Shown in pieces: positions 34,601 to 63,733 of a stretch of 64,000 bases of DNA (the first letter of the stretch is position 1; every line of letters starts with the position of its first letter). A program made the translations under genes and the position numbers. This stretch comes from Ophelia neglecta (lineage: Eukaryota). The notes below the pieces were generated by a model. It ran no database searches and was not told the origin of the DNA. It saw nothing but the letters and a program-made list of their open reading frames with translations. The stretch covers positions 22,878,001 to 22,942,000 of the forward strand of contig OZ260667.1 in assembly GCA_965285935.1 (NCBI GenBank), in the 5' to 3' direction.

Positions 34601-37600
34601 ATAAAGGTTTGTAAACCTAACATGATTATATTCATTGTGACACACCCCTCTACATGTGATCCACCCCTCCACAGACACTGTGACCCACCCCTTCACAGAC
34701 ACTGTGACCCACCCCTCCACAGACACTGTGACACAGCCCTCCACAGACACTGTGACCCACCCCTCCATAGACACTTTGACCAACCCCTCCACAGACACTG
34801 TGACCCACCCCTCCACAGACACTGTGACACACCCCTCCACAGACACTGTGACCCACCCCTCCACAGACACTGTGACACACCCCTCCACAGACACTGTTAC
34901 CCATCCCTCCATCGACACTGTGCCCCACGGCAGCTCACGCACGAGCCGAATAAGAAGGCGAGTGCGCTACACATTCCCGAGGATGATTAATGCAAAACGG
35001 TGTAAAACCATTTCCCCGCTTTTTAAATCATCAAAAAGAAGGTTTTAAAGAAAATAAAAACCAGTCCATTCGATCTTTAAAACATTTAGACCGCAAGAAA
35101 TCAGGACTACACATGGCCTGTAAATTAATATCGCCATTATTTTTTTTCTAACATCTAAGCATAAGTAAATAGTACCAATGCAAGTGCTCTCTATATTGGC
35201 TGTTTCGAATAGACCTTCCATCTACGACTTAGGAACCTTAGGAACCTGTGTGTGGGAGGGGTGGGAAGGTCATGTGTATGAACAATTAGCAGGCGGCATA
35301 TATTCTTTTAAATGTGAATATCAAAACGAGCTTACACAAATAATATTTCTGCCAAAAGAATGACCTTCACATTTCATCGTTGTCAAAGCAAAAACCTGAT
35401 AAACTGGTTTTTTTTTTTTTTTTTTGCATATTATTCTTATATGCTTTTATTTATATAATTTGGTATATTTTAACAGAGTCATTCTGAGTTTTTCGAAAGT
35501 TACTTCGATCCACTACTTAACATTAAATTTTATTTTGCCTCGAATTTAAAGACACCGTACAAAAGCTACTACTTATAAGTGAGCCTCGTTTCCTCGGTGA
35601 AGAGGGGTCCAGTTTTTTTGTGTAGTATTGTGTAGTTACTACGAAAATGATTCTATGCTAGAACACCAACAAATCGTGATAGGTGGCCTCAGTACAGATA
35701 ATTCAATACTTTTCAAGACAAATAATGTTTTGCTTATACATGCTGGCATGTTCAGGTACCGTTCTAATGCGTTGCTTTGACTGTACAAAACAAATCTCAT
35801 GACATTAAATAACATTGATAAGTACTTATAAACTCATCAACTTGAATCTGATATACCGATAGTGTCATTTTTAAACTTCATCTATTGGGAACTTTTTCTA
35901 TATCCTGTGTTGGTAAATTTTATAATTTTCTTCAAAGTTATATGGATGAATTGTTATATTTACTGTGGCGGTGGATTGTATACGCTCTGTGATCCAAAAT
36001 TTGACCAGACAGTGTGAACGCCACCTGTCGACACTTGGGTATCGACCTTGAACATTTCAACCTTAGATCACATTAAGTTTACCAGCTTACTAATTAATTG
36101 GGGAAATGTAAATAATGAGTCTCCGGTGACAACCATCAAATATTTAACTAACAGTGCTATGCAATTAACTGTGTTAAATTGGTGCGAATGGATTTCCTTT
36201 ACCGTAGTTAGCAAGCTACTTTTCTTCAAATTAAAAGATCTTGTAAACATTTACATATAACACAGCTTAAAAATACTTAGAAGTGCTGCTGATCTGGATG
36301 TGAGTTGGCACCCTGACGCATTTAACTCTAAAAAAAGTGGTGTTAGTTAGAACGCAGAAATAATACTGTTATTGCCATATACGCTGTTGGTTCTCCATCT
36401 CCCCTACACATAATACAAACGGTAGTTAGGAGATGGCCATTTATTGAATGGAAAGTAGTTAAAACACGTACACAATGACAAAAAGGTCCGTTTAGCACAA
36501 AGCCATTCTAATGTCAATACGTGTCTCAAAATTATGTACATGTGTATAATTATAACCTACACTAGTGACTATACTGGTGTTTAACAACAATCGCCAGAGT
36601 TAATATCTCACAAGAACTCGCTTGTTGACAGTTTTATAGGCCTGCCCTCACACTGTGGTTTCGTCTTGCTAATAAGCATTTGAACATATACCGGGTACTA
36701 CCACGGCATTTTTCTGCACCTAAATTGACTGCTATCCAAAAGATATAAGATATACATTACATATGGCCCAGGCGAAGGCAGCAGGCAAGCTATTACATGT
36801 AGGGTCTCAACAATCACTTTATAATGTGCTAGCGAAAGCACTCAAAACATTTCTCAAATTACAATATTTGCGGTTAGTAAATTATCTGGATATGTAAATA
36901 AATAAACATTTTAAACGGTTAGAAATGTTCAATACAGTTCGAGATCCTTATTTGAAAGTTATTGAAACTCATGTCTTCGAATAAATTTACTGTAAAACAT
37001 ACGCTATAACACAATGTTAGACAGCCGATCTCTCAATTCTAGATAAGCAAACGTCATAGACAATATTGTATTGGGGACACATTGGCAAGTCTCATTCGAA
37101 CCCCTTGAATGATCCGTAACATGAACATTTGGTATATGGTCAACACAAATAAAGGTCGAAAGGACCAAGAAAAGTATAGCAAAATTATCTCTGTCAAGTT
37201 TACGGTGCAAGACATATTTGACTAAGCATAATGCCCTCTGCCATGTGGATTACAGCGGAAATATAAAATATTTCGTTTGGTCACCCGCAAATGGATTTCG
37301 TTCAGTTTTACCACCAATGCATTTTATTAATTCAAAACTAAAGCCGGACAATAGTACTAATGGCTCATCATGAAACTGTGGTACTGCTGAACAGGGTTAG
37401 CACGTTTATATGTGTCCCTACAACGATCTATTGAATGTTTTAGAAAGGTTAGCCATTACCAGAGTGTTGTCGCATGTGAACCGCCATGTTCTTTTTTTAT
37501 AGGTTGAGAATGGTGTTGCCGTACAAACTATTGCAGAAGGTAAAGACGGTGACAATAACTCGTCAACTGAAGAAGACGGGAAGGAGACAAAGGAGGGCTT

Positions 37601-40600
37601 TAAGGCTGAGCTGCTATACACCATAGACCAGACCCCACCATGGTATACCTGCATTATACTCGGGCTACAGGTAGGCTATGAACTGATCATCTCGTAAAGA
37701 GTTATTAATGTGATTTTTACATTGATACGGATGATAAAAAGAAATAATGGGTTATCAAATTTAATTCAATTTTAACAAATATCAGAAAATATCACGCTTT
37801 TCGAAATGCTTTTCAGTTTACTTCAAACAAGGACAAATCAAACATTATCTGAAACGTTAACCATTTATTGCCGTGTGAAATTCCTGTTAATTTCGCCAAT
37901 TTTGTGTCACAGCGAATTCAAATATTTTAATCGAGCACTATTTCCCATTAAGAAAGTGGAAAATATTAAAAGTAGACGCAACAATAGGCTAAAAGGTGCT
38001 ACACCTAAACGACGCCATTCTTTCATGTTTTCAGCATTATTTGACTATGTTCGGGGCGACCTTTGCCATCCCGTTGATCGTGGCTCCCAGTCTGTGTATC
38101 GGAGACGACATGTTGGCCACGAGCGAAATTCTAGGCACCATTCTCTTCGTCTCCGGTATAGTTACCATCCTCCAAGCCACATTCGGAAACAGGTAGGGCT
38201 ACCAAGAATACCATAGAACTTATAGTAAAATGTTCTTTTAAGTGTATAAATGTTTAAGGGTCATTTTCTTATTTTATTGGCCAAGAACCTGCTAAAATAT
38301 CGCTAGCAAAAACAAGACAATCCTAACCTTTAAGTTTGGCGGCCCCTGTTCACTTTAATATTTTTCAACGGCACTTATGCTAAGGTTCCTGTAAACGGGT
38401 TATGATAGTCAATTCGACATAGTTATCACTGATTTCAGATTACCTATTGTACAAGGAGGGTCCTTTGCATTTCTCGCGCCTATATTCGCTATCCTGGCTT
38501 TGGATCAGTGGAAATGCCCACCAGTTCCTGGTATGTATACACATTTACGGGTGGCGCTCTCATCCAATATGTTTTGATTCAGTTTGCGAAGAGTCAAAGT
38601 TGAATATAAAAAACACAAGGCGCCTGCTTGGAAAGCATTGTTGTTAGGCCTAGCCTAATTCGTTAGACCATTATCTGTGCATGGGGTAATGTAGGTCATT
38701 ATTTGATTCCGCCTAGTATGGTGAATCTATGTAAGTTCGCGCAACATCTACTCGAACTGACAAGGATTTCCCATTATCTTAACAATTTTTTCAACCTTCT
38801 TCAATCTGTATATTATTTGTTGAAATTACTATCGTATGGGACAAGAACCAGATATTTGTGCAAGACCAATATCGGATAAGCGATTGAAGTAAGCTAGACC
38901 GATCCGTTTTGAGTTTTAATTCGCGCAGCTTTGGGTAGAGTCGCGATCCCATTCTAGTTCTAGTTTGCGCATCCGGTCTTTCAAGTTACGACCATTAAAA
39001 GTGTCTGACGAAAACTTTTATACTGAGGAAAAGTGAATCAATATTTATGACGAAAATAACTACTTAGCTAGCATGTAATACATCTTTTAATTCCGTACAG
39101 TACAGTTTGAATAACAAATAAGATTCATTCGTTGGTTTTAGCAAAAATGACCTTTTAAGTTCGCGCAATAGAACCGTGTTAATTGCGTTTAGTAAAGTAA
39201 AACAGCTTTAATATTGGATGCGTGGGTTCCTTACACCAAAGCATGATTAGAATGTTGTTATGAGCAGCAGAAGCAACCAACTGAACCACTACTGATGATA
39301 AAAAAAGTGTTATTAAATAATTTATAATGAGTCAAAAATCAAAGGAGTGTATATTCACCTTGAAGTTGACCTCAAAATGTCAACATCAAGGTTCGTCCGG
39401 GCTGACATGACATCATTGGGCTCCTACAAGGCGCTCATTCTGACAGGCTGCAGTATACATGGTACACATCTGTCACAATAATCCATCGTGTTTTTTATCA
39501 AGTTGAGACCTTGGTTTTCGTCAAGATTTTCTATCCAGGATGAGACCTTGAAAATAAACCCAGACCATTTATAGTAACACATAGCCTAGTTTAGCTCAAT
39601 TTGCCCAAAATTCTTGATTACTATTAAGGGACGTTACTACAACAATACATCTTACTTTTATTCGTATATGTTTGGGCATAACAGACATAATCTAAAAGAA
39701 ATTAGTACATGCAATACTCTGAAATGACGAAGTTATAAACTCCTACGAACTAGGCAAATGGTCATTATTTAACAAAAGATTCAAACGCCCTAACACAGTT
39801 GTATTAAACATGTCGTTTTATAAAGTCTTTTTTTTTCACAGGCAACTACACTGTAAACAACGTCAGTACGGATTATTACGGTAGTGCAGAACACAGAGTG
39901 GTCTGGACTGATCGCATGAGAGAGGTGAGGCAAAATTCATTAAAGTGTTATCATGAAGTAAAATATAATATTTCCTCGTAAATTGGGGGAAACTCCCATA
40001 GCACTCGACTTTGCACTGTACGTTTAAAACGCATGCGAATTCAATATCTTCAGAGTGACTGGCAAATTTATAGTTGCCGGCGGGTATTGGGAATTGTATT
40101 TTGAAAGGTGAAGACAGTCGAGCTTATCAGAATTTTTTTTTAAACTCATCCATGTTCTGACTTGAATAAGGTTTGTCACCATTTGACTAAATTCAAAAGA
40201 CGCACTAGTATAGTCTCGACATTTAAGAAATCCACCCCAGTCCTCGGGCGTAGAAAGCTTGGCTATTTTTTTACGGAATACTTGATAATTCGGAATAAAA
40301 AGAAGTAAGCTAGATCTACTAAGTAAGAAGTGAGCTAAGTTCCTTCCAAGCTCAATTAGCAGCATTGTTGCGACTTCCGCTTCCGGTTATCGGCGCTTCT
40401 TGAGCTGTGCGAACGTTGGCGCTGCTGCTTTTTCCGGTCACGTGGTTTAGGGCAGGCTTATTCGCTAGCGGACAGGGAAGCTGCGCTGATTATACGGATA
40501 GCAATCCTAGGCAATAGCAAGGCATATGATTATTCTAAAATTACCAATTCTTTTCAATTTAACAAATTGTAGTTAATACCATTCTTTTAATCACTGTACA

Positions 40601-43600
40601 TTGTTTCAGATCCAAGGAGCGATAATAGGGGCCTCTTTCTTCGAGGTTCTTATAGGGGCGACGGGTCTGGTGGGCCTCTGTCTGCGGTTCATCACTCCAC
40701 TCTCCATCGCTCCCACCATCGCCCTTGTGGGGATGTCTCTCTTCGGGGCCGCTGCTAACTTTGCCTCTAGACAATGGTGGATCGCCTTAATGTACGTGTA
40801 AACAACCAATTTAAATAGCCAATTGTGCATTCGGCACAAATTTGAACGTTACATTTGCAACATGTTAAAATGTTGCAAAATATTATATAAAAGGCCTATT
40901 GCATATTTAGGCTAGCCTAGCCAATATGTCATTATTAAATTCATGTAACTTACTTATCATAGGTACTATCCCCCCCCCAAAAAAAAAACCCAAAGAAAAA
41001 CAATATTCCAGATTAAAATAAAAAGCTGTTCGTCACTCGATCGTGCACGTGTTTGTCTTGTTGTGGACGCCCATTGCAAGCGTTTACATTGAAAAAAGAA
41101 GGAGGTCACATCTGAAACCGTTTACTACTCAGCAAACACGTGCAGCCCTATCTGTTTTTGTCATACAGTACGGGAACCATGTATGTTAAGAATAACCACA
41201 AACTAAAGTTCAGCTACAGCTTTAACAGCTGCCTTTTAATGTCATAACTTGCGCATTACTATTTTCAGGACAATCGTGTTGATCATCATATTCTCCCAAT
41301 ACATGAGAAACATTCAAATTCCTATCTGCTCCTGCAACAAAGGCTGTAAAGACCTGCGCTGCAGCGGCAAGCTGCCTCTCTTTAAAATGTTCCCGGTAAG
41401 AGTAAAGTCTGTGCTGCCTATTAAATTATAATTTATCAGATATTTAAACCAATAAATATGAAGGAAATTGTGTTTATCTTCGGTTTTGTCTATGCATATT
41501 CATTCGGCAAAGGTGGTATGATTATATTGATGGCCATATCAACGTATAACCCGCCTCTGATTTAACTTTTCACTGACAATATTGTGTAGGATAATGCACG
41601 GTTATTCAAAGATATACAGGGTAAAATGGAGAGTGACGTTTAAAGAAATAGACAAAGCTTGTATGGTGCAGACCGATAGACCGGCTGCCCCCTTAAGTTA
41701 GGGATGTGCTTAAAGGGTAACAATTAAATATATCTACTTTGCACCGGGTAAGAAGAGTTACCAGTGTTCACAGGGATAATTTCATGGTGTAGATTTTTAG
41801 ATCTTTACAACCATGCAGTATATTCTACAATCACTATATCCCTCTCCAAATTGTTCTGCTATGATAGTCTCAATTAATCATCTCAATAAATTTTTTCACA
41901 AAGCTTCAGGATTTCATCTCCGAGGTTTATTTCCAGGCGAAAATTCGTTTATTCATGCACATATAAAAATAGTTTCATTATTTAAAAAGCTTTTAAATTT
42001 GGTAAAATATGTAATGCGTCGGCCGGGAGTCGAACCCGGATCGATTGCTTGGAAGGCAACCATGCTAACCGCTACACCACCGACGCTGGTTGAATGATAT
42101 CGACAAAGATTAACTGGCAATGTCCAAAGATCAATAGGCTATACAGGCCTTTTACTCAGGTAACGTTACCGCTGATTTCTGCTGATTTGTGTACCTATAT
42201 GCGCGGAGAGTTCATCACATTTATAATATCTTGTAGATGACAAAATGGGCAGGGGTGGGGGTGGAGGGGCTAGAAGCTAGATCATTGGGTATGATATTTG
42301 GAGAAAAAGTTGGTATATCAGGTTCAGGCAGCCTCTCTCCACACCACTTTAGTTGTTTATGGGCATATAGGACCTTAGTAAGAGAGTTTTCAGTTTGTTA
42401 TTAAAAAGCGACACGTGTTATTTTTAGTGCATTTTTCATAGCAGCCATTTTACTTGTAGGCCTGGGCCTAAAGGCAGGTTAACTCTTCAAACGTGCTAAC
42501 TAGGGTAGGTTATAATCAATGATTTGTATTAAAAAGTTTAAAGAAAAAAAATATTTTCTGTTTTTCAGATCATAATGGGAGTAGTGTTATCCTGGTTGAT
42601 CTGTGCTATTTTGACTGCGGCAAATGTTCTCCCAAATGACAGTAAAGAGTGGGGTTACTACGCCCGGACGGACACCAAGATAGAGGTGCTCTACAAGGCG
42701 AAGTGGTTCCGATTCCCCTACCCTGGTGAGTTCCTTGTCTTCAATGACGAAAATGATGTCAGTTCGGTTGATTGGTTTTCAAGAATGAAGTTTAACAAAA
42801 GTTTTTGGCGCATTCAGGATTAATCGCATTAACCTTGTGTAGACCCAGTTACTATAGTCGTGTTAATAGCTTAAGAAAACAAAGTTACTATCATAGTCTA
42901 GTCTGTTTAGGGTCTCTAATAAATTGATTTATAAAATCACTTTATTGACTGTGACAAATAAATGAAAAGGTTTACCAGGTCACGAGAACAGTAAACCATA
43001 TATGAGCATGGCAGAGGAGCAAGGACGGTTTGCTGTTTACATGGATGCAGCATCCCCCCCCCCCCGCCCCCGCCAAGAAAAAAAAACCCAAAAAAACATA
43101 TACAATAGCCTACACACAAACGTCCGGACGCCGAACATGCCCTCTCAGCAATTAACTCTTTTTGTCTGGATCTGTATGAGCGTATCGTGTGAGCGTGCGC
43201 ATATGCTTATATATTTAACAAGTGTAGGAATTAACAAGTGTAGGAATTAAAATAATTTGAAACCAAAGATTATTGTCACTAATGAACCACTTGCAGCGAC
43301 ATAGTTCTACTTTAAAATGTTTACTAAAAATGGCTCTAGGCATCTATAACAGCCCCACACATGTAGAGAACAATCATAGGCCTAATTCATTCCTTTTATA
43401 TAACAACCCATTTTTTCCTTATTTAGCGCAATGGGGATTGCCTACCTTCAGTGTAGCCGGAGTTTTTGGGATGCTTGCGGGAACTATTGCCGGGATGATG
43501 GAGTCAATAGGAGACTACTACGCATGCGCTAGACTCGCTGGGGCTCCCCCTCCTCCAGTTCACGCCGTCAACAGAGGTAAGACATAGGATTAGGGAAATT

Positions 43601-45415
43601 TGTCAACTGATGTATGGGCTCATAAAAATTGACTCTACAGGCATGTGTTTGAACCACTCAGTTTCTGTTTCCCAATCTGTCATTGCCGGTATGGTACGTT
43701 TTTGATGTTCCTATTTTCTCGGTTATAGGTGTTTTCGTCGAGGGACTCGGTTGCATTTTCTCGGGACTATGGGGCACCGGAAGTGGAACTACATCATACA
43801 GTGAAAATATCGGAGCCATTGGTCTTACTAAAGTATGGTTCAAGACTAACTATTTACCCTAAATACCACATTGCTATTCTTAGGCAATATAACTATTATA
43901 GTATAAGTATCTTCCTTCGTATTATAACTTGTGTTGTTTATTATTAAATAATAAATCACATAAATATTGTATTAATTAGGATTGAACCAATACAATTTTC
44001 TTGGTTATTCTCTTTGTATTTGAGATCTATCTTCACAAATAACGAGATGTCGTGTTTCGTTCCAGGTAGCCAGTCGACGTGTTATACAAGTGGGGGGAGT
44101 TGTTTTTATTTTCTTCGGACTTTTTGCAAAGTTCGGAGCGCTGTTTGTATCACTGCCAGATCCTATCGTTGGAGGGGTTTTTATGGTCATGTTCGGTTAG
44201 TAGATGGCAAATGAATTCCACATTCAGCCGCTGTTTTAATTTGACTTAACAATTTATAGTAGTATCTATGGAAAAAGAATCGTTGAAACCTTTCCAGTAA
44301 CAGTTACAGCTTCTTTTTATTAGAATTGCTTGTTAAAGTCAGACACAATTCTTTACCTGTATGATCTGAGAACAGAACTACACAAGCAGTTGATGCCTTT
44401 ATATGTCACTACAATACAGGCCTTGTCTACAGCTCTGCATTCGCCAGCTTCTTTAGTTTTTTTTTATAAGCGTTAAACATTTTGTTTACAGGTATGATTG
44501 CTGCCGTTGGAATCTCAAATTTGCAGTTCGTAGATATGAACTCTTCGCGTAATCTTTTTATTTTTGGATTTTCCTTGTTTTTTGGACTCTCAATGCCTAA
44601 TTGGATGTCAAACAACACGTCTACCATTAAAACCGGAAACAGTGTGGTCGACCAAATATTTACTGTACTACTCAGTACCAGTATGTTCGTCGGCGGCGTA
44701 GTAGCTATTATTTTGGACAATACGGTACCTGGTAAGTTTTCCTGCATGAGTTGAACCAAAAGGAACGTCTTCTTATTTAGTTCACAGAACTTCTTATGTA
44801 TGATGAATAAGTCTATGACTTTGCGGTATGACTGGTGTCTGGAAACTTCTCTATGAACTTGTTAATTCGAGTAATTATTACTCGCTGTCTGAGTGGTCGA
44901 AATTGCGTGAGAACATCATTAGATATGCCTAATAATATGTACATTCTATTATAGTATATTTTATTATTAAATGATCTTCTATTTGTCTCACATTTTAACG
45001 TAAAATGTAATATGGTAAACATCTGGCACATGTCGCGTTAATGGCTAAGAGCTTTGTTTTTCTTCTTTTAGGGACTGATGAGGAGAGAGGAGTTGTCCAG
45101 TGGCGGGCAATGATCAACGGCAATGCATCTTTGGAAGACGCGGAAGGTGTTCGGACATACGACTTCCCGTTCGGAATGAATGCCATTCGAAAGGCCAACT
45201 GGTTGCGTTTTATCCCACTCTGTCCTACATACAAAGGATGGGGCTATAAGAAAAGAGCAAACAGTGTCAAAGACGAACCGGAAGTTATAGTCAAAGCGCC
45301 ATCTTCGAATGGGGAAAATGTCCACCATCGGAAATCCGGTGACCGCCAGTCACCTCCTCCAAAATACGACGCAGTGTCAAGCGAGAATAGAAACGCCGGT
45401 TCTACGGATATGTAA
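31696..45415 (+). CDS. SLC23/NCS2 (nucleobase-ascorbate transporter) family member, 13 coding exons, 656 aa
   Basis: Exons 31696-31731, 37503-37670, 38035-38192, 38439-38530, 39842-39924, 40610-40791, 41269-41395, 42569-42725, 43427-43576, 43729-43832, 44066-44195, 44492-44731, 45072-45415. All introns are GT-AG and phase-compatible; total 1971 nt. Motifs: PPW...[64 protein letters not shown]. The first exon ([12 protein letters not shown]) is less certain than the rest. Confidence 0.95.
34636..34928 (+). repeat. 24-bp minisatellite, ~12 copies, intronic
   Basis: Unit TGTGACCCACCCCTCCACAGACAC. Confidence 0.97.
42015..42086 (-). tRNA. tRNA-Gly-TCC: tRNA-Gly (anticodon TCC), intronic and antisense to the SLC23 gene
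   Basis: GCGTCGG TG GTGT AGCGGTTA GCAT G GTTGC CTTCCAA GCAAT CGAT CCGGG TTCGACT CCCGG CCGACGC A forms a complete 72-nt cloverleaf with A and B boxes. A T4 run lies ~8 nt downstream. Confidence 0.96.
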
Positions 45416-48632: not shown

Positions 48633-49778
48633 TTATGAATGAAAGGTCCAAACATGTGGGAGGCCGCATAGTTCAAACCCCATGCGTGCTGCCATTTTTG
48701 CCAGACCCTCAGTTTCAATGTGGTTTTCGAAAACAAATGGAGGAAAAATAAGTCCTTTTCGGTGGCAATTAGCTCTCACAAGTAAAACACACCCTCCAAC
48801 ACCATCGATTTTTACAACATTTCCTTCTTTATGGATAGCAGGCAAGTATATTCGTTTGCTTTCATCGTATCCTTCAAGCATTAAGAATTCTCTGTTCACC
48901 TTGCTCAGGAACTCCTTAGAGCGATTGGTTTCACGCCACGTGTTCCTGTCGTAAACCAGCGAAACCCCGGTCCCAGCAGTGTACATGCAAGACGGAGCAA
49001 CGATGTCCTTTTCTGCTGAGAGGAGATGTTGAATTAAATCAGGGGGGACGTATTTCACATCACTGTCTATCCACAACACCCAGTCTTCATCAGTGATCCC
49101 GCGAGCCATTAACTGATTACGCGCAAGCGCCAAATGACCCCTGCGCACGCGCTGGAATCCCGGATCGTGCCGTGTAAACGCTGGGCGCTGGCGTAAGCCC
49201 TCCGCCGACCGGAAGACGCTGATTTTCCTGAAATGGTGTTCTAGTTTATCAGCATGCACTTTAGCTATCGAAAACGTCTTGTCCGTGCTCGTGTCCTCGC
49301 CTAACGCTATAGAAATCAGCTCGTGGGGATAGCTAAGGCTACAGAGTAAGTGAAAATAATGTGCTAAGTGGGATGCTGCATTTGACACGGGAGTTAATAT
49401 CACAATTTTCGAAGTAAAATTCTGTTTGAACGCCTCAGAATAATTTGACTTTTGAGACAACTGCAGAAACTTCTCATAGTCACGGTCCTCCGTTTTATTC
49501 ATTATGTATCCTGAGGGGCATTTTGGAGAAATGGTCGCAAGTTTCGGCACTTGGCAACCAGCCCTCGTCAGCTGATAAACCGATTCAGAATTAATGTCTA
49601 GTTGCGTTGTTCCTACGTTTGACACAACTCGGATGTAGTTGGTTCTGTGATGAATAAGTAGGTAAAGAATCATACAAAATGTTCCTATGTTAAACACAAC
49701 GAACATATTTTTCCATGTCGGAGTCATTTCCGGTGCGTTACCTCTGACTGCAACCGCACACGATGTTTTAGCAAGCAT
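48633..49778 (-). CDS. Anp1/Mnn9/Van1-like (GT62, GT-A fold) glycosyltransferase, type II membrane protein, single coding exon, 381 aa
   Basis: Intact ORF with an N-terminal TM anchor (MFVVFNIGTFCMILYLLI). Family motifs: IVILTP, LSYPHELISI, QRVRRGHLALARNQL, WVLWIDSDV (DxD), IDGVGGCVLLVRA..HR.G..FP, IETEGLAKMA..MG. A polypyrimidine/AG acceptor lies 24 nt upstream of the ATG (exon starts at 49802). Candidate 5'-UTR donors are at 51329 and 51910. Confidence 0.9.
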   Translation of the reverse strand: MLAKTSCAVAVRGNAPEMTPTWKNMFVVFNIGTFCMILYLLIHHRTNYIRVVSNVGTTQLDINSESVYQLTRAGCQVPKLATISPKCPSGYIMNKTEDRDYEKFLQLSQKSNYSEAFKQNFTSKIVILTPVSNAASHLAHYFHLLCSLSYPHELISIALGEDTSTDKTFSIAKVHADKLEHHFRKISVFRSAEGLRQRPAFTRHDPGFQRVRRGHLALARNQLMARGITDEDWVLWIDSDVKYVPPDLIQHLLSAEKDIVAPSCMYTAGTGVSLVYDRNTWRETNRSKEFLSKVNREFLMLEGYDESKRIYLPAIHKEGNVVKIDGVGGCVLLVRANCHRKGLIFPPFVFENHIETEGLAKMAARMGFELCGLPHVWTFHS

Positions 49779-50728
49779 GAAATAGCCTCTAGACTAAACG
49801 CACTGAAACAATGAAAGAAAGTTTAGTTAAACCAATAACAGTTGTGAAAAGTATTCAATAATTCTTCCTGATAAAATGCATAGGCCTTGACATTGACCAT
49901 TGGGGGTATTGAAGTCACATATAACCCATCGGAAAATAATGCCAGCTAAAATTTGACAGCATCGCCAAAGATAGGCAAGCTATTTTCATTCTGGCTACAC
50001 GCGGCATAAGCCCACCAGAGAAGTGGCGTGGGGTACAAGTCCTGACAGTTACACAAACACTGATCATAGTGGCTGCTCTGACTAGTCGGAATGAATGAAT
50101 TGTAGATATATTTGATAATTTAAAAGATATTTCCAGTCAACATATGCCCAAGCTGCATGTACTGTAGTATCAAGTACCAAAATGCTGTCACAAGTCAGTT
50201 ATTGCTTAAAGCTTGTATTGCATTTATAAAACAGCATATAGTAACAAAACTATGACCCTTAAAGCGTGGTTTAAGAGACAAAACTATTTATAACTTGTTT
50301 TCATCTGTTATGAGAAATAGGCACGGTCAAACGTTTAATTAAAAATGATTATTTTGATTTTAAACAGAGAAAGGACAGCATTTGCAGCTATTCAATGAAC
50401 CCTTCCCTGTAGTATCGCCGGAGTATCATACGAAGGCTTACACATTTCAGGCCTACATGTACAATAAAGTATGAATTAAACAACATTTGCCCTGGCAAAT
50501 GTACTCTCACCCAAGGAAGTTCGTAAAAGGAAAGTTTTTCCACTTATTCTCAAGCGAATTAGCTGAATTCCAAATCACACATTGTAAAATAATCTTTAAA
50601 TACGCGTTAGGCCTACGTGTGTATGATATTTTACGTCGACTCACCCTTAGGTTCGTAGACACAATAGTGTTTTTCAATTACTCTTGCGGCATATAATATG
50701 ATAACGATTTACCTGACAATAAATATTA

Positions 50729-51187: not shown

Positions 51188-52652
51188 TTACTTGGGCGGA
51201 GGTCAAAATGATAAATACAATATCCATGTTTGACAGGATAGTGTTATACATGATTGGCGGGTCTTTTGTTTAGTTTCTAAATTTTGCAGTACCTCGTGAA
51301 GAATGAAATGGAGCGTGTAAGCTACTTACCTTTCTGAGTTTCCCTTACAGTGTTAACAGTATTTGAACATTCAAAGTTCAGGGTTAACATACTTCCATAA
51401 GTGACATGCACAAAAGCCACGATATATAGGTCTTAATGATGAGAAACCGAATATGAGAGCGCGCATAAAACTATATAAATAATGGCGTATTAATGTTCAA
51501 TAAACTATATGTTCTGCGATAGTTAATTATAAATAGGTAAGTTTATCTCATTCTTTTTACTTCAGTTGTTAACCCTCGTCAAAAATATGTTTAGGGCACA
51601 TATGGCACAATGAAAATCTCACTTGTATATACACGTACATCGCAGGTAATCAATTAATTATGATTTCTTGCCTTTACACAGAAGTACTGTTCAAAGTTCA
51701 TTGACAACAGGTGTGACCTTCTCTTGCACGGTAACCACCGCTTTATAAGTGTACAAGCTGTACCTTGAGTCATAAGAGGATACTGTTGTAGTTGCATGTT
51801 TAATATTGACGATTAACTAAACGACTTCACTGGAGAGTGGGCAAAGTCCAACTCGATACATTATACAATGTGTTTAAAATATTACAGGTATAGTAAGTCA
51901 TTTCGCTCACCTGGATAGACACGCGGTACATTGTCATCCGGCTGAAAGCAGCAAACCAATCACGCCGTTTTCAACATAACCATATTTTATTGCTATAGTC
52001 GGCCTTCATAATTATGTAGAAATCAGTCGTTTCTATACCATACACATCCAATTTTTAGCCAGACAAGCTTATATGCTTTAGGCCTACATTATACATATCG
52101 AAATATGGCTCATATTGTGAGACATGTCTACAATTCTATTGTCGTATTACATAGAATAAAATGATCAAGCCCCAAGCGTTCTTGTGTCAATGCTATACAC
52201 ATACCATCGAATACACAGGCTCTCAGTTATCGTATCAGTTGGCTACGGCACGATTCAGTTTGTCCCAAATAGATTCTCTCTATATGTATCTACCCAGCCG
52301 GTACTCATACCGGCGGTTCCGGTTCCTTGCGCAATCGTTAAGGATGTTCAGGGGTTAACCATTACATTTTTAGTGGTATTGAAAAAAAACACTTAACAAA
52401 GTGTGATTTTTCAGAACGATTCAGAAATCGAGCACCACAAACAGTAGGCATTAAATACTTCATGATTTACACGGTGCCAAACTTAGTGTGCTTTCAATAT
52501 CATTATATAAACTTCCTTGGTATAAGGATGTTAACATGTATTTTTTTTCTTCCAACGAAATCGAGCACCGCCTCCCGCTAGTTCCTTCATACATGGGATA
52601 TGGTGCTGATGGACTGGGCATGGTGTAATTCACCGAGTGCCATTGCTATTTT

Positions 52653-54095: not shown

Positions 54096-54175
54096 GAGTT
54101 TTATGCATCAACGATACCAAGGGAACCACACGACGGTATCCCCAGGGAACCACACAACCGTATCCCGAACACATA

Positions 54176-54320
54176 CAGTGAAACCTGTGAAATAAGACCA
54201 CCCGACTTACTAGATAAATGTGAACGAAGAGGTTAAATCGTGTAGGGATTTACTATTGAATCTATAGTCGGTCCAAATTTTTCGTGTGGTCTTAGGACAG
54301 AGGTGGCCGTTAAGGCAGGT
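54176..54320. mobile_element. Partial Tc1/mariner-type MITE related to 17714-17886
   Basis: TA-CAGTGAAACCTG left end (same TIR as the right end of the 17.7-kb MITE). Internal TAAGACCAC / GTGGTCTTA inverted repeat. Right end is degenerate. Confidence 0.55.
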
Positions 54321-54942
54321 AACATGGAAACAACAACACAAGGTGTTAGACTAAAGTTAGTGCGACCACAAGGTAGTAAGTATAATACCCCAACGGGGGT
54401 CACTGTCGCACTTATGTACAAATAACACGAAGTGATACTGATGTGTTAATTTGTAACTTATATGACTGCAACTGCACCGAACAACGGCACTGATAGCAAT
54501 ACTAATAGAAAAGAATAAACAACTAAGTAGGCCAAACAGCCCATACACATGGAAAGAGCACAGTTACTACTTTTACTAGCGTCCCTTGTTAACAGGTGGA
54601 GAACTACATACTGTCATTTAAGCCCATAGCCCAGAGAACGCAAACCATAATTCACAGCCCGTGGGACACTGGAGGTACTACGTTATGCCTGATAGAAACC
54701 CACTAATGGGCAGTTGCCTGCTTAAATGCCCGCCGACGATACCAAGTAGGACGGTAGCATGCCTAATGATTAAGGGAGGAACGAAATCACTTTCCGAACC
54801 CAAAATTGCGTGCTTCAATTGTTTAGCATACCCAAGTCTGCCGTACCACGTAAAGACAAGGACGTATTAAGGCGATGACAAATCTGCGGTCAGGAAAACC
54901 ACGTGGGGTTTGACTCCGGCCCCCACGTAGGCGCTCGGAACT

Positions 54943-55289
54943 CCCGGGGGTACTCACTAATTGGAGGTAGGTAGGTAGGCTCCGCTGGAATGACCCCCCT
55001 TTTTTCAGGTCACATAGAATTTTGATACCTACTTTTTGCATGCAACATAGAATTTTGACCCCCTGTTTTCACTCAACATAGAACTTAGCCCCTCATTTTT
55101 AATGATACAACAATTTTGACCCCTATTTCATTTGAAAAACAAAGATTTTTGACCGCTGTTTTTCCGAAAAACAAAGAATTTAGACCCCCATTTTTACGAC
55201 AGACATAGAATTTAGAACCCCCATTTTGAACCTTCCGGGGAGCCTACCTACCCACTTTGGGCCCGAGTAACCCCCCCCCCCCCCCCGGG
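54943..55289. mobile_element. MITE with CCCGGGGG termini and internal ~31-bp tandem subrepeats
   Basis: CCCGGGGGTACTC...GGTAGGTAGGCTCC pairs with GGAGCCTACCTACC...GAGTAA(C)nGGG. About 7 copies of a CATAGAATTTTGACCCC-like unit lie inside. TSD not clear. Confidence 0.8.
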
Positions 55290-56907: not shown

Positions 56908-59900
56908 TTACAAGTGTGAAATCTCTAAGGAATTCTGGTCAACTAATGAATTGGTGGTGGATGATTTTGTTGTTGTGCAAGGCCTGCAAAATATAACGTA
57001 AAAACGACTTGTAATGTGTCAACAATACTTTAAGTACGGCCTAATCTCTCGACCCGTTTCCACAGAGATAAAAAGTCCGAACCAATACATGTGCCAAAGT
57101 GATGTATGTTTGTTTTTATAATTCGGTTCGACGTTATTATTTAAAGCAGGTATACCTTCCAAATGCCTCCGCTTCTTCGACGGTATCGGTGAGCGAACAG
57201 CCTCTAGTTTCGGGCAGGAAGTATGTCAGGGCTCCAGCTATAGTGCCCGATGCCCCAAATATCGTTGCTTGCATTGGGAGCCATATTCCTGTCTATCAAA
57301 ACGAGATCTTTATAACTTCATTTTTGCCAAATTTAATGCAAATTAACTACACGGTGCAAACTTTTTTTGAGACTAAGCAGGTTTAATATTTAATTTTAAA
57401 AATTCATAAAATAAAATTATAACAGATAAAAGTAATGGTTGTGAAACAAAGACCAAATTGCACCTGTGCAGTAAACAAAGTACAGTCGAATGTATGGGCA
57501 ATCATCGGACTGAGCATATTAACCCTTAACTTGCAGATGCCCTCAATTTCAAAACTGCCTTTTTTATTAAATCATTTGCCAATTGACAGTTTATCTTTAG
57601 TACACATAACAAATAAGAGTATGCCCTACTGTTAGGTATTATTGTAAGTGCAATCATTGGTTTTACATATAACACCTTAGTTCCAAAAAGTTGCAATCAG
57701 AAAATCTTTATATGCCCATTTGGTTAAGTTTGTGGGTGGTAGTTTATTATCTTCTTCTTCACATGCATCATTCACTCTTAGCAGCCTCAAAATCAACTCC
57801 TTATTGCCTTTAATTCGGAAAGTTTTAGCGGAGTCAAGGGGCCAAAATCTTGCCCTTAATTCTTGATTCAGAGGTGCCCTTTATACATTGCTATCTCTTA
57901 TTAATCCCATGAAAATCTGACGGGACTGAACAAAAGCGCCCTTAATTCAAAGATACCCTAATTCACAGATACGCACAGGGACAGATTCGACCGTATGTCC
58001 TACATTACTACATTCCTAGCGATATCTATGCAGCGTGTAATTGCATTACCAGAAAGATTATTCAGGTTTGGTATGACTGGAGGGAGTAAGAGTCAAAGGG
58101 GACGGATGTGTCATCAAAATTACGAGTAAATCGTCTCTTGACATTTTGTCATATTTGAATAAGTTCTTAACTCACCAATGGCGCTCCCATATAAGGCGCT
58201 GCCATGCCACCGACTCGAGCTACCATCGAGCAGACCCCGAATCCGGTGTTTCTCACCTCCGTCGGAAATATCTCTCCCGAGTAGACAGTCAAACCAGAGA
58301 AACTGATGGTGACAAAGCCTCTCCCAATAAGTGACACCGTCGTATGTGCTGTGCCGAAATCATATAGCAACAAGGGAATTGTGATAAAGCAAGACATTCC
58401 AGAAGCGACGAGGGCAATGCCGGAAGTAAGTCTTCGTCCAAGAAATCTCCAGTCGAAGCAGAATATGACAAGAATGTGGGCGGGAATTTCTATTAAACCG
58501 GAAAGAAACAAGTTGAGGTACACATCCCCGGACAAGGCAGCCGTGTTCAGTGTGAGCGAATAGTACACCAAACTATTCACGAACCTAATGAATAGAAAGA
58601 ACTGATATTCGATACAATGCTCCAGCGTGTATACCTTGATAACAAATCGATATAAAAGCCTGGTTTAGAAGGAATGGACTATTCCCATTGACATAGCTAG
58701 GGGCCACTATACAATATTTACGGAGAAGGTAAAATAAATATATATGTTACCATTTTTTGTCTTCAATTTTTGTTAGATGACATTTTTGGCAGTTGATTAA
58801 TTTACTTCGCCTTTGAAACATAAAAGAGGTGGACTGGGGGACAGGGCACCTATCATTTAAATCATACCCAACGTGGTTCTGGCAAAACGCGATATTATCT
58901 TAAATCCCTAAACGATTAGTCGCAAACAGCCAAGCGGTTATGTACGCTATGGGTCGATTGTACGCCGGTCATTTTATAATCCATCGCCAAAGCGGCAATT
59001 AGAGAAAAACTATTCTCGGATTGCTTTTTCGCGTCATCAATTTGATGCCGCCACACCGATATTCGCTTCATATCTGATGGGCAGATAGGATTTTTACCTC
59101 AGGAAGGTTTATCATGAAGGGTAAACAATTTTTTTCCATTCGAAAAATGTAAATGTGTCTTCATGAAACTAGACTGATTGGTAGTCGGATCATTATGAGA
59201 ATGGTCAATAATGACAAATGATAAAGACCAATATTATTCTAAAAGTAAATGATAAATTTGTCTTCTTATTTATTGTATGCAATAAGTACCAGTAGTATTG
59301 CACTAATTAATAATAACTCATTCTAATCTACACTACGATCTAATAACCCATTGTAAACCACGATAACCAACGATAACCCACAATAAATCACGACAAGCTG
59401 CGATTATCACGCTAAATCACGATAAACCAAAATAACCTGCGATAGACCACGATAAACCACAATAACTCACAATAAACCACGAGAACCCACGATAACCCAC
59501 ACTGATAATATTGGCCTTCAAAAACTTAGTCAAAATGACTAACTTAGATTAGTCACGAGAAAATGACTAACCTAACTTAGTCAGAAAAGGACAATGTTAG
59601 TCAAATGGCTAATGTTCCTTAGTCAGGAGTTATTCCACCTCGTACATTCAGCCTTGAACTTGACACACAACTAACGTATCTATAGAACCCCCCCCCCCCC
59701 CGCTCAAGGGGTCTACTATACACATAGGCTTGTTCCAGAATGTCAGAATGACCCCCTAAAGGAAGGAAACCGGCTTGGTTTTCAACCTCTTTTTTCACGG
59801 GCTTTTTTACTGACTTGACCCGCCTAAAAGAAAGGTTTGGCTGTAATCCACCCCCTAAAAGAACATTATATTTCTCGGGGACGGGTTATAATATACCACT

Positions 59901-62900
59901 TTTTCTTATTTCTCGGGGTTAGTTTGAAATTACCCCTTTTAATTTTTTTTCGCGGAGAAAGTAGGAAAGGACCCCTTAAGGTCATTCTTTTCAGTCCCTT
60001 CTCCTTTCAATGTATAGGCCTATAATATTGTATATATATGAATATATATCTTGTAGGTAAAATCATATTGATTTACTTGTCATGTAGTCTGGAGCGCCTG
60101 TGTATTTTAGCATGAAACTTATATTTATTTATGATGTTCTCTGCAACTGAAATCGCAATATACTACTCACAAATGCGTTCACACGCGTTCACCTTCTCGG
60201 GCATCTTTGCTACTTTCGCCAACACACCGGAAGGCAGAAAGCGCGACCTCCATGTGCTCCAAGGACGAAGCGGGTCGGACATCACAAGTTCAATTTACTG
60301 GCAAGTGGTTACATCAAAGTTTTTTTATCTTCAATTTATATGAGCCCGTTTGAAAGTAGGACTATAGATCCTGTTTTTCCATCAGAGCTTTTATTGAAAT
60401 CAGCCTCTCTCGACAGACCACTTGCATGGAGAGACGATCATATGGGTTGTCTTAGCTAGGCAGTCTCACTATAATTTTTTAACACTTGTATTTTGATGTA
60501 TGTACTTGTATAAAGCATGGTACTTTTTTAATTTCAGAGACCCGGCTTGTATATAAAAACTGATATACCCGTATCCAGGTTCTCCGAAGAAGACATCTTC
60601 AGGCTGTCCTGCTCCTATTGTATGCCACCTGCATCTTCAACCTGTTGTACAATGATAAGTGAGGCGCACTTGTATAATAGTAGACTATTTTTTATATGAA
60701 ATTATATTTGTATGAATCCCTCTTTGGTATCAGGGAATAGGCAATTCTCACTGTTGAGCAGGTTCTATGTCACGTAGGGCTGTTCCATTGAACAAGTGTA
60801 AGGCATTATTTTTAATGTTAGTAAATAAAAGTTAGAACAGAACAATGTTTCGTTATGATCCCCTAAAATACAGATTTATCCCTTTGGGTAACTTAGGTTA
60901 GTCATTTGACTAACTTTTGTTAGTCATTTGACTAACTTTTGACTAACATGACTAACACGGGTTAGGACATTGGCACTTAGCCACAAAGACTAAGGTAAGT
61001 TAGTCATTTTGACTAAGTTACTTAGTCAATATATTTTCAGTGCACGATTACTCACAATAAAACACGATAACTCACAATAACCTACGATAACCTGCGATAC
61101 CTTGCAATAACTTACATTAATCACAAAAAAATGTGGTGATGGAAAACTGCATGTCAGTTCAGAAAACAGCACCAGAAGCACGTTTAAGGATTTGTTAATC
61201 AAATTCTGTTACATATACATGTATTATTGGCCATGATTTTTTTTTAACCATTGGCAAATTGGACTTATACATGGTGCATTTAAGTCCGTCGCTTGCGTTC
61301 CGTTACTGGTGCAAGGACCGCTCGAGCTGTTGCAAATTTCTATCCTATCGGTGGTTTTTCGATAATTTCAGGTCCCCCTTCCGGATACTAGATAGCTTTA
61401 GGCGAAACTAGGACAAAACCACCCCTTGGTCCCCAAATGCTGCCAAGGTACACAACTCTACTCGGATGCCCGGCAATGTCTTCAATGGGTGGAGGGGTTA
61501 TGGGAACGGAGTGACTGCAGAAAAGCACTTTGTGTGCTTATTTGCCAGATGAAATATAGTCCACCTAGTCACTGTGTCCCTCAAAAGGTATACATGGAGA
61601 GAAACCATCTAATTTCTAACATGAGGAAAAAGGTTTCAGTTTAAACCATCTGTTTCATTGTTAATGATACGTCAGTTTGTATAAAAAGGATAAAAGTTTA
61701 AAATGAATATTATCATTTTGATATCATAAAAGTAAGGTTAGTTCAGACATATATATTGAAACTAGATCCCTTCCATAGCTTGGAGCTAATCTAGGTAGGT
61801 CCAGAGCATGTGTCGATTCGAATCGAGATGGTCTGGCATTTTAAAAGAAACCCTTAAACACCAGACAGCCATGTGCTTCCCTGACTAAAAGTCGTGTAGG
61901 CATGTTACCAATGAAGGCAGAGGACTAAAGTCCAAACTCTAAGGCGCTTCGTCTTCACCAGGGCTAAACAATTTTGTTGTTTTAATGGTTCGAAGATTTC
62001 GATCTGCAAAAGAAAATTTATCATTTAGTGGGAATTTAGTTTCGAAAAAAAGAAAACAAAATCGTTTTAAATATCCATGTGATAGGAATCACAAAACAAA
62101 GTGCCCACCTTTTCCTTTTCTAGAGCATATAAATCAATATGCTCCGGAAAGTGTTTTCCATTGACCTTTGCAATCTTCTTCAGAACATTGCCTGCCTTTT
62201 TAAACCGACGTCTTTCAAGAAGCCACCGAGGTGACTCGGGCAACAACCTATAAAGAGTACACTTATCAATTCAAGACACCCAACTAATGTTTATTTATTG
62301 TTCTCTTCATTCTAGTTAGTGGATGGTTATAATTATGCAACTATAAATACCAAAAGTCAGCAGATAATCAACAAATTTATACAACACACCAATCCTGACA
62401 AGATGACAAAATAATATGGCCCATTGAATATTAATGCACATAAAACAAACAAAAGATCATTAACATGTGTCGTATATAAATCTATAGGGTTAAAACCGGT
62501 GATTATGAAATATGAAATTGATTCCATTAGTTACAAATATCAATTACTGCGAGGCTTATATTCACCATGTTCAAACTTACCAAACATGTGAAATAAAAAT
62601 AATGTTTGGAAGCAACATGGCCAACTGCAGCATCCGGTCATCTCTGATAGCGTAAGCTAAGCCGGAAACTACCATTATGCCGATCGCAAAGGATATATTG
62701 GACGCAACACCAAGGGATGTCCGATAAGCCGAGCCTACTATTTCCATTACTAACGGCAAGAGAAAGTTAATGAATAATTGACATAATCATGTAATTGTTC
62801 AAAGTGTAGAGAACATGGACGCTACTTCAATGTAGTTAGAGATTCAGGTAGAGTAGCCGGATGGTTCGGAAGGTCGACTCCCAGACGAAAGTTTTACGAT

Positions 62901-63733
62901 CAATCGATAGCTTCCCGGAAGTGACACTGTCTAGTTCTTCGCGTGAAAGTACCTAAACCCCGTAGTGCACCACATCACCCAAGTTAAGTTGGGTCACAGT
63001 TCACAGTTGGATGAACATTAAAATATGAATTGTCCAATTCATAAGAATAAGCTATTTCTGAATTCTGATATATTAAAATAATAAATCCCTAGTCTACTCT
63101 TCCAGGTGGCAGCAAATGAAGGTCATTGAGATATTTACAAAGGAGGCTTGAAATCGAAGATAATGGTCAAGTAAAATGACCAATCCCAAGGGCCAAAAAT
63201 GCTCTAAATCTCAAATTAACCAGCTTACCTATAATGAAACCGGATTGGTAGCAACCGAATGATCCCCATCCCTGGAAAAACTTTCCAATGCAGAACAAAA
63301 TGTAGTCATCAGCGACCAAAACCAGGATACCGGAAAGCAGCTTAATCACTATATTTGTCATTAACCCAACTTTCCTTCCAAATCTATGAATATACACGAA
63401 TTTCAAGAAGTGATATAGAAAACATATCTGCCTTGATGAAGAAGTATCGTATTTGGCTCAGAATTGAAGATAGAAATGAGACATCGAAAAAGGCTGGAAA
63501 GTGCCTTATACCAGACAGAACTAGATCGATGTTGACAAATTATTTTTAATTCATTCATAAGGCACAAATGAACGTCCACGAATCAAATTATAACTGTTAG
63601 TTTAGTTAGTTGTAGCATGCATAACATACTTGTCGGATATAATACCTGTGACAAGGGAACACACGAGTATGCCACCAAATAATAAAGTGGTGGAAAGATC
63701 TCGAAGTCCGCTTTTGTTACAAACTAAATTGTA
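56908..63733 (-). CDS. SLC22 organic cation/anion transporter-like MFS protein, 5'-partial (8 coding exons in window)
   Basis: Exons 63733-63630, 63383-63229, 62749-62581, 62247-62109, 62003-61909, 58584-58176, 57292-57156, 56983-56908. All introns are GT-AG and phase-compatible. Motifs: [58 protein letters not shown]. The protein ends ...LEISHL*. Confidence 0.95.
59330..59499 (+). repeat. 10-bp minisatellite (CACGATAACC-like), left part; resumes at 61043-61125
   Basis: CAC(G/A)ATAA(C/A)C repeated in register on both sides of the CACTG...CAGTG element. Confidence 0.85.
59500..61042. mobile_element. Non-autonomous CACTA/EnSpm (CMC)-like DNA transposon, 1543 bp, in an SLC22 intron
   Basis: Termini CACTGA / TCAGTG; 2-bp TSD CA. 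Perfect 24-bp subterminal inverted repeat at 59523-59546 / 60996-61019. Clusters of TTAGTCA/TGACTAA at both ends. Confidence 0.85.
62851..63000 (+). mobile_element. Decayed tRNA-derived SINE
   Basis: A-box-like GTAGCCGGATGGTT, followed by a core-like AAAGTACCTAAACCCC...CACCCAAGTTAAGTTGGGT; highly degenerate. Confidence 0.4.

What the first reader, a model, noticed from the sequence alone, without database searches (positions are those of the whole stretch)
48633..49802. Fungal-type GT62 (Anp1/Mnn9/Van1-like) glycosyltransferase in an animal genome
Seen: an intact 381-aa Golgi-type II protein with a DxD motif and the Anp1-family motifs. The CDS has no introns, although both neighbours are intron-rich, and it appears to have a spliceosomal 5'-UTR intron. 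Knowledge: GT62 proteins form yeast mannan polymerases (alpha-1,6-mannosyltransferases), have bacterial homologues, and are not part of the vertebrate or Drosophila glycosylation toolkit. Inference: a domesticated horizontal acquisition or a patchily retained ancient gene, pointing to an uncharacterised glycan pathway in this animal. Linkage to animal-type genes argues against contamination.
Basis: partly seen in the sequence, partly recalled or inferred. Interest (0 to 1): 0.75.

Follow-up and report, generated by a model that had tools for sequence, protein, structure and literature searches.

The report
Yeast-mannan enzyme family in worms, molluscs
This animal gene encodes an intact relative of the yeast mannan-building enzymes, with close counterparts in molluscs, segmented worms and ribbon worms, so it is an old inherited gene rather than a recent fungal import, and it likely adds mannose in a sugar pathway still to be identified.

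Summary
An intronless 381-codon frame (49778-48633, minus) encodes a membrane-anchored GT62/Anp1 protein (Pfam E 4e-53; predicted fold matches yeast Mnn9, Z 31.6), with every residue shown essential in Mnn9 present. It lies between spliced SLC23 and SLC22 genes.

A lineage-specific or fungal transfer is not supported. The gene sits in a clade (100/99) whose named members are molluscs, annelids and a nemertean, and the mollusc branch roughly follows species relationships. GT62 also occurs in amphioxus, a choanoflagellate, a moss and bacteria. The clade nests in neither bacteria nor ascomycetes and carries eukaryote-type marks (anchor, His204, EGY loop). Patchy retention versus ancient transfer from a microbial eukaryote stays unresolved: no AU test rejected a placement.

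New here: the clade's nucleobase pocket is remodelled (GED in 137 of 155 members, 0 of 117 others) while metal- and sugar-side residues are kept, so donor or linkage may differ from yeast. RefSeq already auto-labels such genes 'mnn9-like'; six literature searches found no description, and one paper calls the family fungus-only. The scan's earlier notes concern bacterial GT62 only. Verdict: an undescribed lophotrochozoan subfamily of a known family, likely a Golgi alpha-mannosyltransferase.

The parts
48633..49778 (-). Intronless coding frame of the GT62/Anp1-family protein (381 aa plus TAA)
49650..49706 (-). Predicted signal-anchor/transmembrane segment, residues 25-43, after a short N-terminal tail (type II topology inferred)
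   Evidence: hydropathy 2.05; helix 20-53 in the model
49293..49301 (-). G160-E161-D162, clade-specific motif in the nucleobase pocket
   Evidence: 137 of 155 clade members, 0 of 117 other GT62; aligns with AnpA Leu158 region and COLGALT1 Asp91 (counted by hand)
49140..49145 (-). R212/R213 = yeast Mnn9 R209/R210 (donor-sugar and phosphate site)
   Evidence: alignment counted by hand; PMC3787745
49059..49067 (-). DxD motif D238-S239-D240 = Mnn9 D236/D238
48948..48950 (-). D277 = Mnn9 D280 / AnpA D286 (essential; acceptor side)
48867..48875 (-). E302-G303-Y304 loop = Mnn9 E305 / AnpA E311-Y313; eukaryote-type, absent from the bacterial homologues examined
   Evidence: 143 of 155 clade members, 33 of 33 ascomycete, 0 of 38 bacterial
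48639..48641 (-). H380 = Mnn9 H389, metal ligand
49779..49830 (-). 24-nt untranslated leader (49779-49802, with in-frame TAG) preceded by a candidate 3' splice site (AG 49803-49804, pyrimidine tract, branch-like sequence); unverified
   Evidence: sequence; no RNA holder listed
51324..51332 (-). Candidate consensus donor (AAG|GTAAGT) of a non-coding first exon, one of 11 consensus-like donors between 49800 and 58000; unverified
37503..45415 (+). Neighbour: SLC23-type nucleobase/ascorbate transporter, 12 exons
57140..63457 (-). Neighbour: SLC22-type transporter, at least four exon fragments

Best explanation
This is an intact member of an old lophotrochozoan subfamily of GT62 glycosyltransferases, shared with molluscs, annelids and a nemertean, that is predicted to sit in the secretory pathway as a type II membrane protein and likely transfers alpha-mannose from GDP-mannose to a terminal sugar of a glycolipid or glycoprotein glycan. 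Mechanism, by homology to Mnn9/AnpA (inferred): D240 and H380 with the donor diphosphate hold Mn2+; R203/R212 bind the phosphates; R212 and E355/T356 line the donor sugar; D277, N279, E302 and Y304 hold the acceptor; transfer is retaining. The acceptor and linkage are unknown. A single capping or branching step, such as the alpha-1,3 mannose of molluscan Man-alpha1-3Man-beta1-4Glc-ceramide lipids or an alpha-1,6 mannose, is more likely than a yeast-style mannan polymer. The gene has been inherited vertically since before the mollusc/annelid/nemertean split. Its deeper origin is eukaryotic, either patchy retention from early animals (about 50%) or an old transfer from a microbial eukaryote (about 40%). 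Shown: sequence, family, fold, residue conservation, clade. Inferred: location, donor, linkage, acceptor, origin, and that the host is an annelid.
For: Pfam Anp1 E 3.6e-53. Model pLDDT 90.4; 3ZF8 is the top fold match at Z 31.6, rmsd 1.9 A over 249 residues, against Z 20.9 for the next entry, COLGALT1 (Foldseek E 2.5e-24). R209, D236, D280 and H389, essential in Mnn9 (PMC3787745), map to R212, D238, D277 and H380. The six residues R212/D238/D240/D277/E355/H380 are all present in 150 of 155 clade members. 13 of 17 AnpA substrate-contact positions (PMC9769593) are identical or conservative in the query; R130, L158 and Y287 differ and N404 lies beyond its end. Rough comparison with L041: pS 0.93, pN 0.34. 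Clade support 100/99; query with two Capitella sequences 100/95; chiton, limpet, octopus and two bivalves group at 99/92. Eukaryote-type marks: H204 154 of 155 vs 1 of 38 bacterial; EGY 143 of 155 vs 0 of 38; hydrophobic segment before the domain 119 of 155 vs 1 of 38, 14 of which have no room for one. Bivalve glycolipids with Man-alpha1-3Man-beta1-4Glc-ceramide are cited in PMC3606520 (passage).
Against: No activity, expression or localisation data. The nucleobase pocket differs from all other GT62 groups examined: K/R at the Mnn9-Q124 position in 25 of 155 vs 110 of 117; D162 in 145 of 155 vs 0 of 117; [DN][FY] at 192-193 in 4 of 155 vs 96 of 117. So GDP-mannose use is not assured. The characterised GT62s read here make alpha-1,6 bonds, and no alpha-1,6-mannan product was found described for these animals. 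The origin is unresolved: no AU test rejected any grouping. The host's phylum rests only on this gene's own tree position.
Confidence: 0.6

Rival explanations
1. Same gene and history, but the lophotrochozoan subfamily switched donor: it is a retaining transferase that uses a UDP-sugar (for example alpha-galactose or alpha-glucose) rather than GDP-mannose.
For: Clade-wide remodelling of exactly the base-contact region: GED 160-162 in 137 of 155 vs 0 of 117; loss of the K/R that buries guanine and of the [DN][FY] motif. D162 aligns with COLGALT1 Asp91, which shapes a uridine cavity (alignment counted by hand; PMC12003778 passage). The clade has a long stem branch (0.41).
Against: Yeast Mnn9 itself departs from the other GT62s in this region yet uses GDP-Man, and the AnpA guanosine contacts are van der Waals or main-chain. 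COLGALT1 has Arg at the position where the clade lost K/R, so that change is not a UDP signature. Donor-sugar residues R212, E355 and T356 are unchanged.
Confidence: 0.3
2. Origin by ancient horizontal transfer from a microbial eukaryote (protist or early-diverging fungus) into the lophotrochozoan stem, with amphioxus having a separate copy.
For: No named member outside Lophotrochozoa. The amphioxus protein lacks the GED signature, keeps the outgroup KDY motif and is only 35% identical. The careful tree does not join it to the clade. The coding frame is intronless here and in L041.
Against: Joining clade and amphioxus gave a higher likelihood than the free quick tree (+10.3; p-AU 0.64), and adding the choanoflagellate group was not rejected (p 0.44). 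No donor lineage is sister to the clade. Single-exon coding frames are common among animal Golgi transferases (recalled).
Confidence: 0.4
3. Transfer from bacteria into animals.
For: Bacterial domains are the closest non-clade group by median identity (39%, maximum 43%); grouping clade plus bacteria is not rejected (p-AU 0.53).
Against: The 14 bacterial rows form their own branch (99/90) and the clade is not nested in it. All 38 bacterial sequences lack the EGY motif and 37 lack H204, which the clade shares with eukaryotic GT62; 1 of 38 has an anchor-like segment.
Confidence: 0.07
4. Recent fungal transfer into this one animal, or fungal contamination of the assembly.
For: Only the family name and the lack of introns.
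Against: 45-62% identity to annelid and mollusc proteins versus 28-35% to ascomycetes; clade support 100/99; GC3 0.46, like neighbouring exons at 0.45-0.55; contig depth over the gene similar to that over SLC23 in three runs of one sample (weak, depth is not copy number).
Confidence: 0.02

Closest known systems
Saccharomyces cerevisiae Mnn9 (CAZy GT62, Pfam PF03452, PDB 3ZF8), with Van1/Anp1 in mannan polymerases I and II
   Same: GT-A fold (Z 31.6, rmsd 1.9 A, 249 residues, 33% identity), type II topology, and all four mutationally essential residues plus E305, E364 and T365.
   Different: Not an orthologue of Mnn9, Van1 or Anp1 specifically; the Mnn9 hairpin I262-N283 is five residues shorter (C264-T280, counted); Q124 is S132; no partner subunit was looked for; activity untested.
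Aspergillus fumigatus AnpA (GT62 alpha-1,6-mannosyltransferase of galactomannan core; PMC9769593)
   Same: Metal, phosphate and most acceptor contacts map one-to-one through the orthologue P0367; a precedent for a GT62 recruited to a non-N-glycan product.
   Different: Guanosine contacts R130 and L158 become S132 and G160; acceptor contact Y287 becomes R278; AnpA orthologues form a separate branch.
Automatically annotated 'mannan polymerase complex subunit mnn9-like' / 'anp1 subunit-like' proteins of Haliotis, Argonauta, Pecten, Mizuhopecten and Mytilus, and unnamed Capitella, Owenia, Helobdella and Lineus proteins
   Same: Same clade, 40-63% domain identity, same architecture and signature.
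   Different: None found characterised; the names are automatic labels. One annelid branch has an apparent intron; bivalves have expanded paralogues.
Branchiostoma floridae mnn9-like (XP_035670100.1) and Hartaetosiga gracilis GT62
   Same: GT62 with all catalytic residues.
   Different: 35-37% identity; lack the GED signature; placement relative to the clade unresolved.
Human COLGALT1/GLT25D1 N-terminal GT-A domain
   Same: Nearest animal solved fold (Z 20.9; profile E 2e-8).
   Different: 15% identity, far below Mnn9; the window gene is not a COLGALT or LH3 family member.

Membership tests
GT62 / Anp1 (PF03452) | Profile score above the Pfam gathering cut-off | tested here: met
   181.1 bits vs 28.8; profile positions 15-262 of 263
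GT62 / Anp1 (PF03452) | Mnn9-type GT-A fold | tested here: met
   predicted model: 3ZF8 first, Z 31.6 vs 20.9 next
GT62 / Anp1 (PF03452) | Catalytic set R209, D236-x-D238, D280, H389 of Mnn9 | tested here: met
   R212, D238/D240, D277, H380 (one search counted by hand)
GT62 / Anp1 (PF03452) | Type II membrane anchor, as in the eukaryotic members | tested here: met
   single N-terminal hydrophobic helix predicted; Golgi location itself not testable
GT62 / Anp1 (PF03452) | GDP-mannose donor (guanine pocket like Mnn9/AnpA) | tested here: inconclusive
   P130, L216, A219 kept; K/R132, L160 region and [DN][FY]192-193 replaced clade-wide
GT62 / Anp1 (PF03452) | Mn2+-dependent retaining alpha-1,6-mannosyltransferase activity | not testable with these tools
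   needs an enzyme assay
Yeast mannan polymerase complex (M-Pol I/II) | Orthology to Mnn9/Van1/Anp1, nested among fungal GT62 | tested here: inconclusive
   not nested among the three ascomycete rows in the careful tree; forced grouping 36 log-likelihood units worse but p-AU 0.127; yeast Mnn9, Van1 and Anp1 themselves were not in the tree
Yeast mannan polymerase complex (M-Pol I/II) | Heteromeric partners and an Och1-primed N-glycan acceptor | not tested
   no whole genome held
Recent horizontally acquired gene | Restricted to one lineage, best relatives non-animal | tested here: not met
   best named relatives are annelids, molluscs and a nemertean
Ancient horizontally acquired gene | Animal clade nested with support inside a non-animal donor group, vertical grouping rejected | tested here: inconclusive
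   not nested; p-AU 0.64, 0.44, 0.53 and 0.13 for four groupings
Ordinary animal GT-A families (COLGALT/GT25, LH3, GalNAc-T) | Best profile and fold placement in such a family | tested here: not met
   COLGALT1 phmmer E about 0.1 vs 1e-35 for Mnn9; Z 20.9 vs 31.6

The most novel reading that the evidence does not exclude
Lophotrochozoans own an undescribed GT62 subfamily, kept for over half a billion years from a family described as fungus-only, whose rebuilt nucleotide pocket and acceptor site give it a new donor or linkage; it is the missing enzyme behind a lophotrochozoan-specific glycan such as the alpha-1,3-mannosylated (mollu-type) glycolipid core.
Probability: 0.25. Interest if true: 0.75.

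Novelty: new variant of a known kind. Interest (0 to 1): 0.5.

Why it matters
GT62 is treated in print as a fungal family (PMC5225481: PF03452 genes 'only identified in fungi') and as an antifungal target (PMC3787745). A conserved, apparently active subfamily across molluscs, annelids and nemerteans, with further copies in amphioxus and a choanoflagellate, corrects that picture. It points to a glycosylation step in a large animal group, including farmed oysters, mussels, scallops and abalone, whose enzyme I could not find described. It gives glycobiologists a named, expressible candidate for unexplained invertebrate alpha-linked sugars, and a natural test of how a GT-A nucleotide pocket changes.

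Tried and rejected
Whole-genome check for paralogues and partner enzymes: no genome held. Expression and the UTR intron: no RNA holder listed; the three runs laid cover introns and intergenic DNA evenly and show no splice-like joint at 49803 among the joints listed (28 joints not shown). No listed contig bridges the gene to a neighbour's exon, so linkage rests on the window assembly. Viral source: 4 pattern matches in viral contigs, none confirmed. Look-alikes in the scan's notes: none by sequence or place. Literature on animal GT62: searches (1 paper, on fungi; 0; 2, unrelated; 4; 25 of 62 listed; 40 of 340 listed) showed none by title or abstract start; in two of the papers 'mnn9' occurs only in references, and the other two were not opened; PMC7185993 has no 'GT62' in its main text. 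The library omits most subscription journals and CAZy was not available. Searches for a mollu-series mannosyltransferase found no paper naming one; that the enzyme is unknown is recalled. Atlas hits to rotifer and giant-virus clusters without Anp1 were not followed. Rooting the origin: four AU tests on a quick LG+G4 tree, none rejected. No complex prediction was run because no binding is claimed.

Full report
1. Observation. The minus strand holds one open frame from ATG 49778 to TAA 48633, 381 residues. It scores 181 bits on Pfam Anp1 (cut-off 28.8, E 3.6e-53) and matches yeast Mnn9 (PDB 3ZF8) at E 1.1e-35. One hydrophobic segment starts at residue 25. An AlphaFold2 model built on 101 homologues (mean pLDDT 90.4) shows a helix at 20-53, a low-confidence stretch at 54-69 and a GT-A domain whose best solved match is 3ZF8 (Z 31.6, rmsd 1.9 A, 249 residues; next COLGALT1, Z 20.9). 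A pyrimidine tract and AG end 24 nt before the ATG, an in-frame TAG lies in that leader, and a consensus donor sits at 51329 among 11 consensus-like donors. The UTR intron is therefore plausible but unproven; no RNA holder was listed.

2. Context. Left is an SLC23-type gene: 12 exons with GT-AG introns give about 645 open codons. Right is an SLC22-type gene seen as four fragments. GC3 of the GT62 frame (0.46) is like three neighbouring exons (0.45-0.55). Three contig sets of one sample cover the gene at depths similar to SLC23, and one contig spans the whole frame with its gaps outside it. This sample may be the window's source and depth is a weak measure, but nothing suggests contamination. 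No whole genome was held.

3. Relatives. Of the 120 hits listed (176 found), 34 carry an organism name: 32 molluscs (chiton, gastropods, bivalves, cephalopods) and 2 annelids; 86 are unnamed. A near hit clusters with Capitella. A profile of 26 clade members added Helobdella and three Lineus proteins, and no other animal phylum by name (only 8000 candidates scored). Several are auto-labelled 'mannan polymerase complex subunit mnn9-like' or 'anp1 subunit-like'. Outside this group, GT62 was named in amphioxus and the choanoflagellate Hartaetosiga (2 of 10 looked up), the moss Ceratodon and many ascomycetes, Hyaloraphidium, 40 bacterial genome loci, and Atlas clusters led by Zoopagomycota and Oomycota. 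So the statement in PMC5225481 (passages read; its supplement listing sampled genomes was not read) that PF03452 is fungus-only does not hold.

4. Tree. A careful tree of 75 domains (chosen from 452; LG+C20+F+G4) gives the 24 clade rows 100/99 support on a long stem. The query groups with two Capitella sequences and two unnamed ones (100/95). Chiton, limpet, octopus and two bivalves form a branch (99/92) that roughly follows species relationships, and a second chiton/cephalopod paralogue pair shows early duplication. The 14 bacterial rows form their own branch (99/90); the three ascomycetes lie deep in another. Amphioxus is long and unplaced. AU tests on the quick LG+G4 tree rejected nothing: clade + amphioxus p 0.64 (likelihood 10.3 higher than the free search), + choanoflagellate group p 0.44, + bacteria p 0.53, + ascomycetes p 0.13 (36.3 lower). 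Yeast Mnn9, Van1 and Anp1 were not available as rows. Character evidence favours a eukaryotic root: H204 is in 154 of 155 clade members, 33 of 33 ascomycetes and 1 of 38 bacteria; EGY in 143, 33 and 0; an anchor-like segment in 119, 28 and 1 (the 155 were assigned from the tree and ranks, include near-copies and are mostly unnamed). Introns vary: L041 encodes a whole clade member without one, while L106 and L109 show an acceptor-like AG three codons before the YDRN motif and no upstream match. The host is likely an annelid, but only this gene says so.

5. Mechanism. In PMC3787745 (parts 1-3 of 6 read) R209, D236, D280 and H389 are essential to Mnn9; by the alignment, counted by hand, they are R212, D238, D277 and H380, and E305/E364/T365 are E302/E355/T356. 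Six of these are intact together in 150 of 155 clade members. A rough codon comparison with L041 gives pS 0.93 and pN 0.34. Substrate contacts from the AnpA simulation (PMC9769593, section 12 and passages) map one-to-one through P0367, with changes at R130 (S132), L158 (G160) and Y287 (R278). The enzyme is thus very likely active, metal-dependent and retaining (inferred). The most likely donor is GDP-mannose, as in the characterised GT62s read here.

6. What differs. The nucleobase pocket is rebuilt across the clade: GED at 160-162 in 137 of 155 vs 0 of 117 others; K/R at the guanine-burying position in 25 of 155 vs 110 of 117; [DN][FY] at 192-193 in 4 of 155 vs 96 of 117. D162 aligns with COLGALT1 Asp91, which shapes a uridine cavity (PMC12003778 passage). 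Against a donor switch: Mnn9 itself departs here and still uses GDP-Man, the AnpA contacts are non-specific, COLGALT1 has Arg at position 132, and the sugar-side residues are unchanged. I give GDP-Man about 60% and another donor about 30%. A candidate product is the alpha-1,3 mannose of bivalve Man-alpha1-3Man-beta1-4Glc-ceramide lipids (PMC3606520 passage). That its enzyme is unknown is recalled, and it would need a change of linkage, so this is a lead only.

7. Novelty. Six searches showed no paper on animal GT62; the library lacks most subscription journals and CAZy was not consulted. Passages of PMC6367135, PMC8724618, PMC6994554, PMC7185993, PMC11897130 and PMC12987934 were read and added no description of it. 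The scan's own notes cover only bacterial GT62. The genes exist in public annotation, so this is a new variant of a known family: an old, conserved lophotrochozoan subfamily with a distinctive pocket.

8. Verdict. Observation confirmed; recent or fungal transfer and contamination rejected; ancient origin unresolved (retention about 50%, transfer from a microbial eukaryote about 40%, bacteria under 10%). Interest 0.5; 0.75 if the enzyme proves to have a new donor or to make a lophotrochozoan-specific glycan.

Noticed in passing
L001, L020, L029, L031 and proteins P0299-P0315: Many bacterial GT62 domains are the C-terminal module of long proteins; one search lists several with Och1-like PF04488 and GT2 domains (one with CAP59 PF11735), echoing the yeast Och1-then-Mnn9 order. 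The bacterial domains lack the EGY loop and mostly have Trp for His204.
   Followed up: partly
P0190 (Branchiostoma floridae) and P0176 (Hartaetosiga gracilis): GT62 proteins in a cephalochordate and a choanoflagellate, outside the lophotrochozoan clade; a moss clade (Ceratodon, P0358) also exists.
   Followed up: partly
L106:739-1056 and L109:793-1110: Last exon of a clade member (79% to P0039, Helobdella branch) begins at an acceptor-like AG, so this branch appears to carry an intron that the window gene and L041 lack.
   Followed up: partly
proteins P0086-P0119, P0142 (Mercenaria, Ruditapes, Mya): Bivalve paralogue expansion: six Mercenaria copies share one longest-contig length, suggesting a tandem cluster.
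   Followed up: no
window 42015-42086 (-): tRNA-Gly(TCC) gene inside an intron of the SLC23 gene, on the opposite strand.
   Followed up: no
window 13642-14217 (+): 191-codon frame with a weak zf-RVT match (E 0.001, below cut-off), likely a retroelement remnant.
   Followed up: no
window 52653-54040, 34655-34928, 53616-55607: 38-bp satellite with 26/38/64-bp higher-order units, a 24-bp minisatellite, and very high-copy repeats by contig depth.
   Followed up: no
window 133-183 and 11159-11209: The same TA-rich array pattern with identical scores occurs twice 11026 bases apart, hinting at a local duplication.
   Followed up: no
ESM Atlas rows 14 and 20: Rotifer-rich clusters look alike by features (0.94-0.95) without an Anp1 label; possibly a separate GT62-like set in rotifers.
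   Followed up: no
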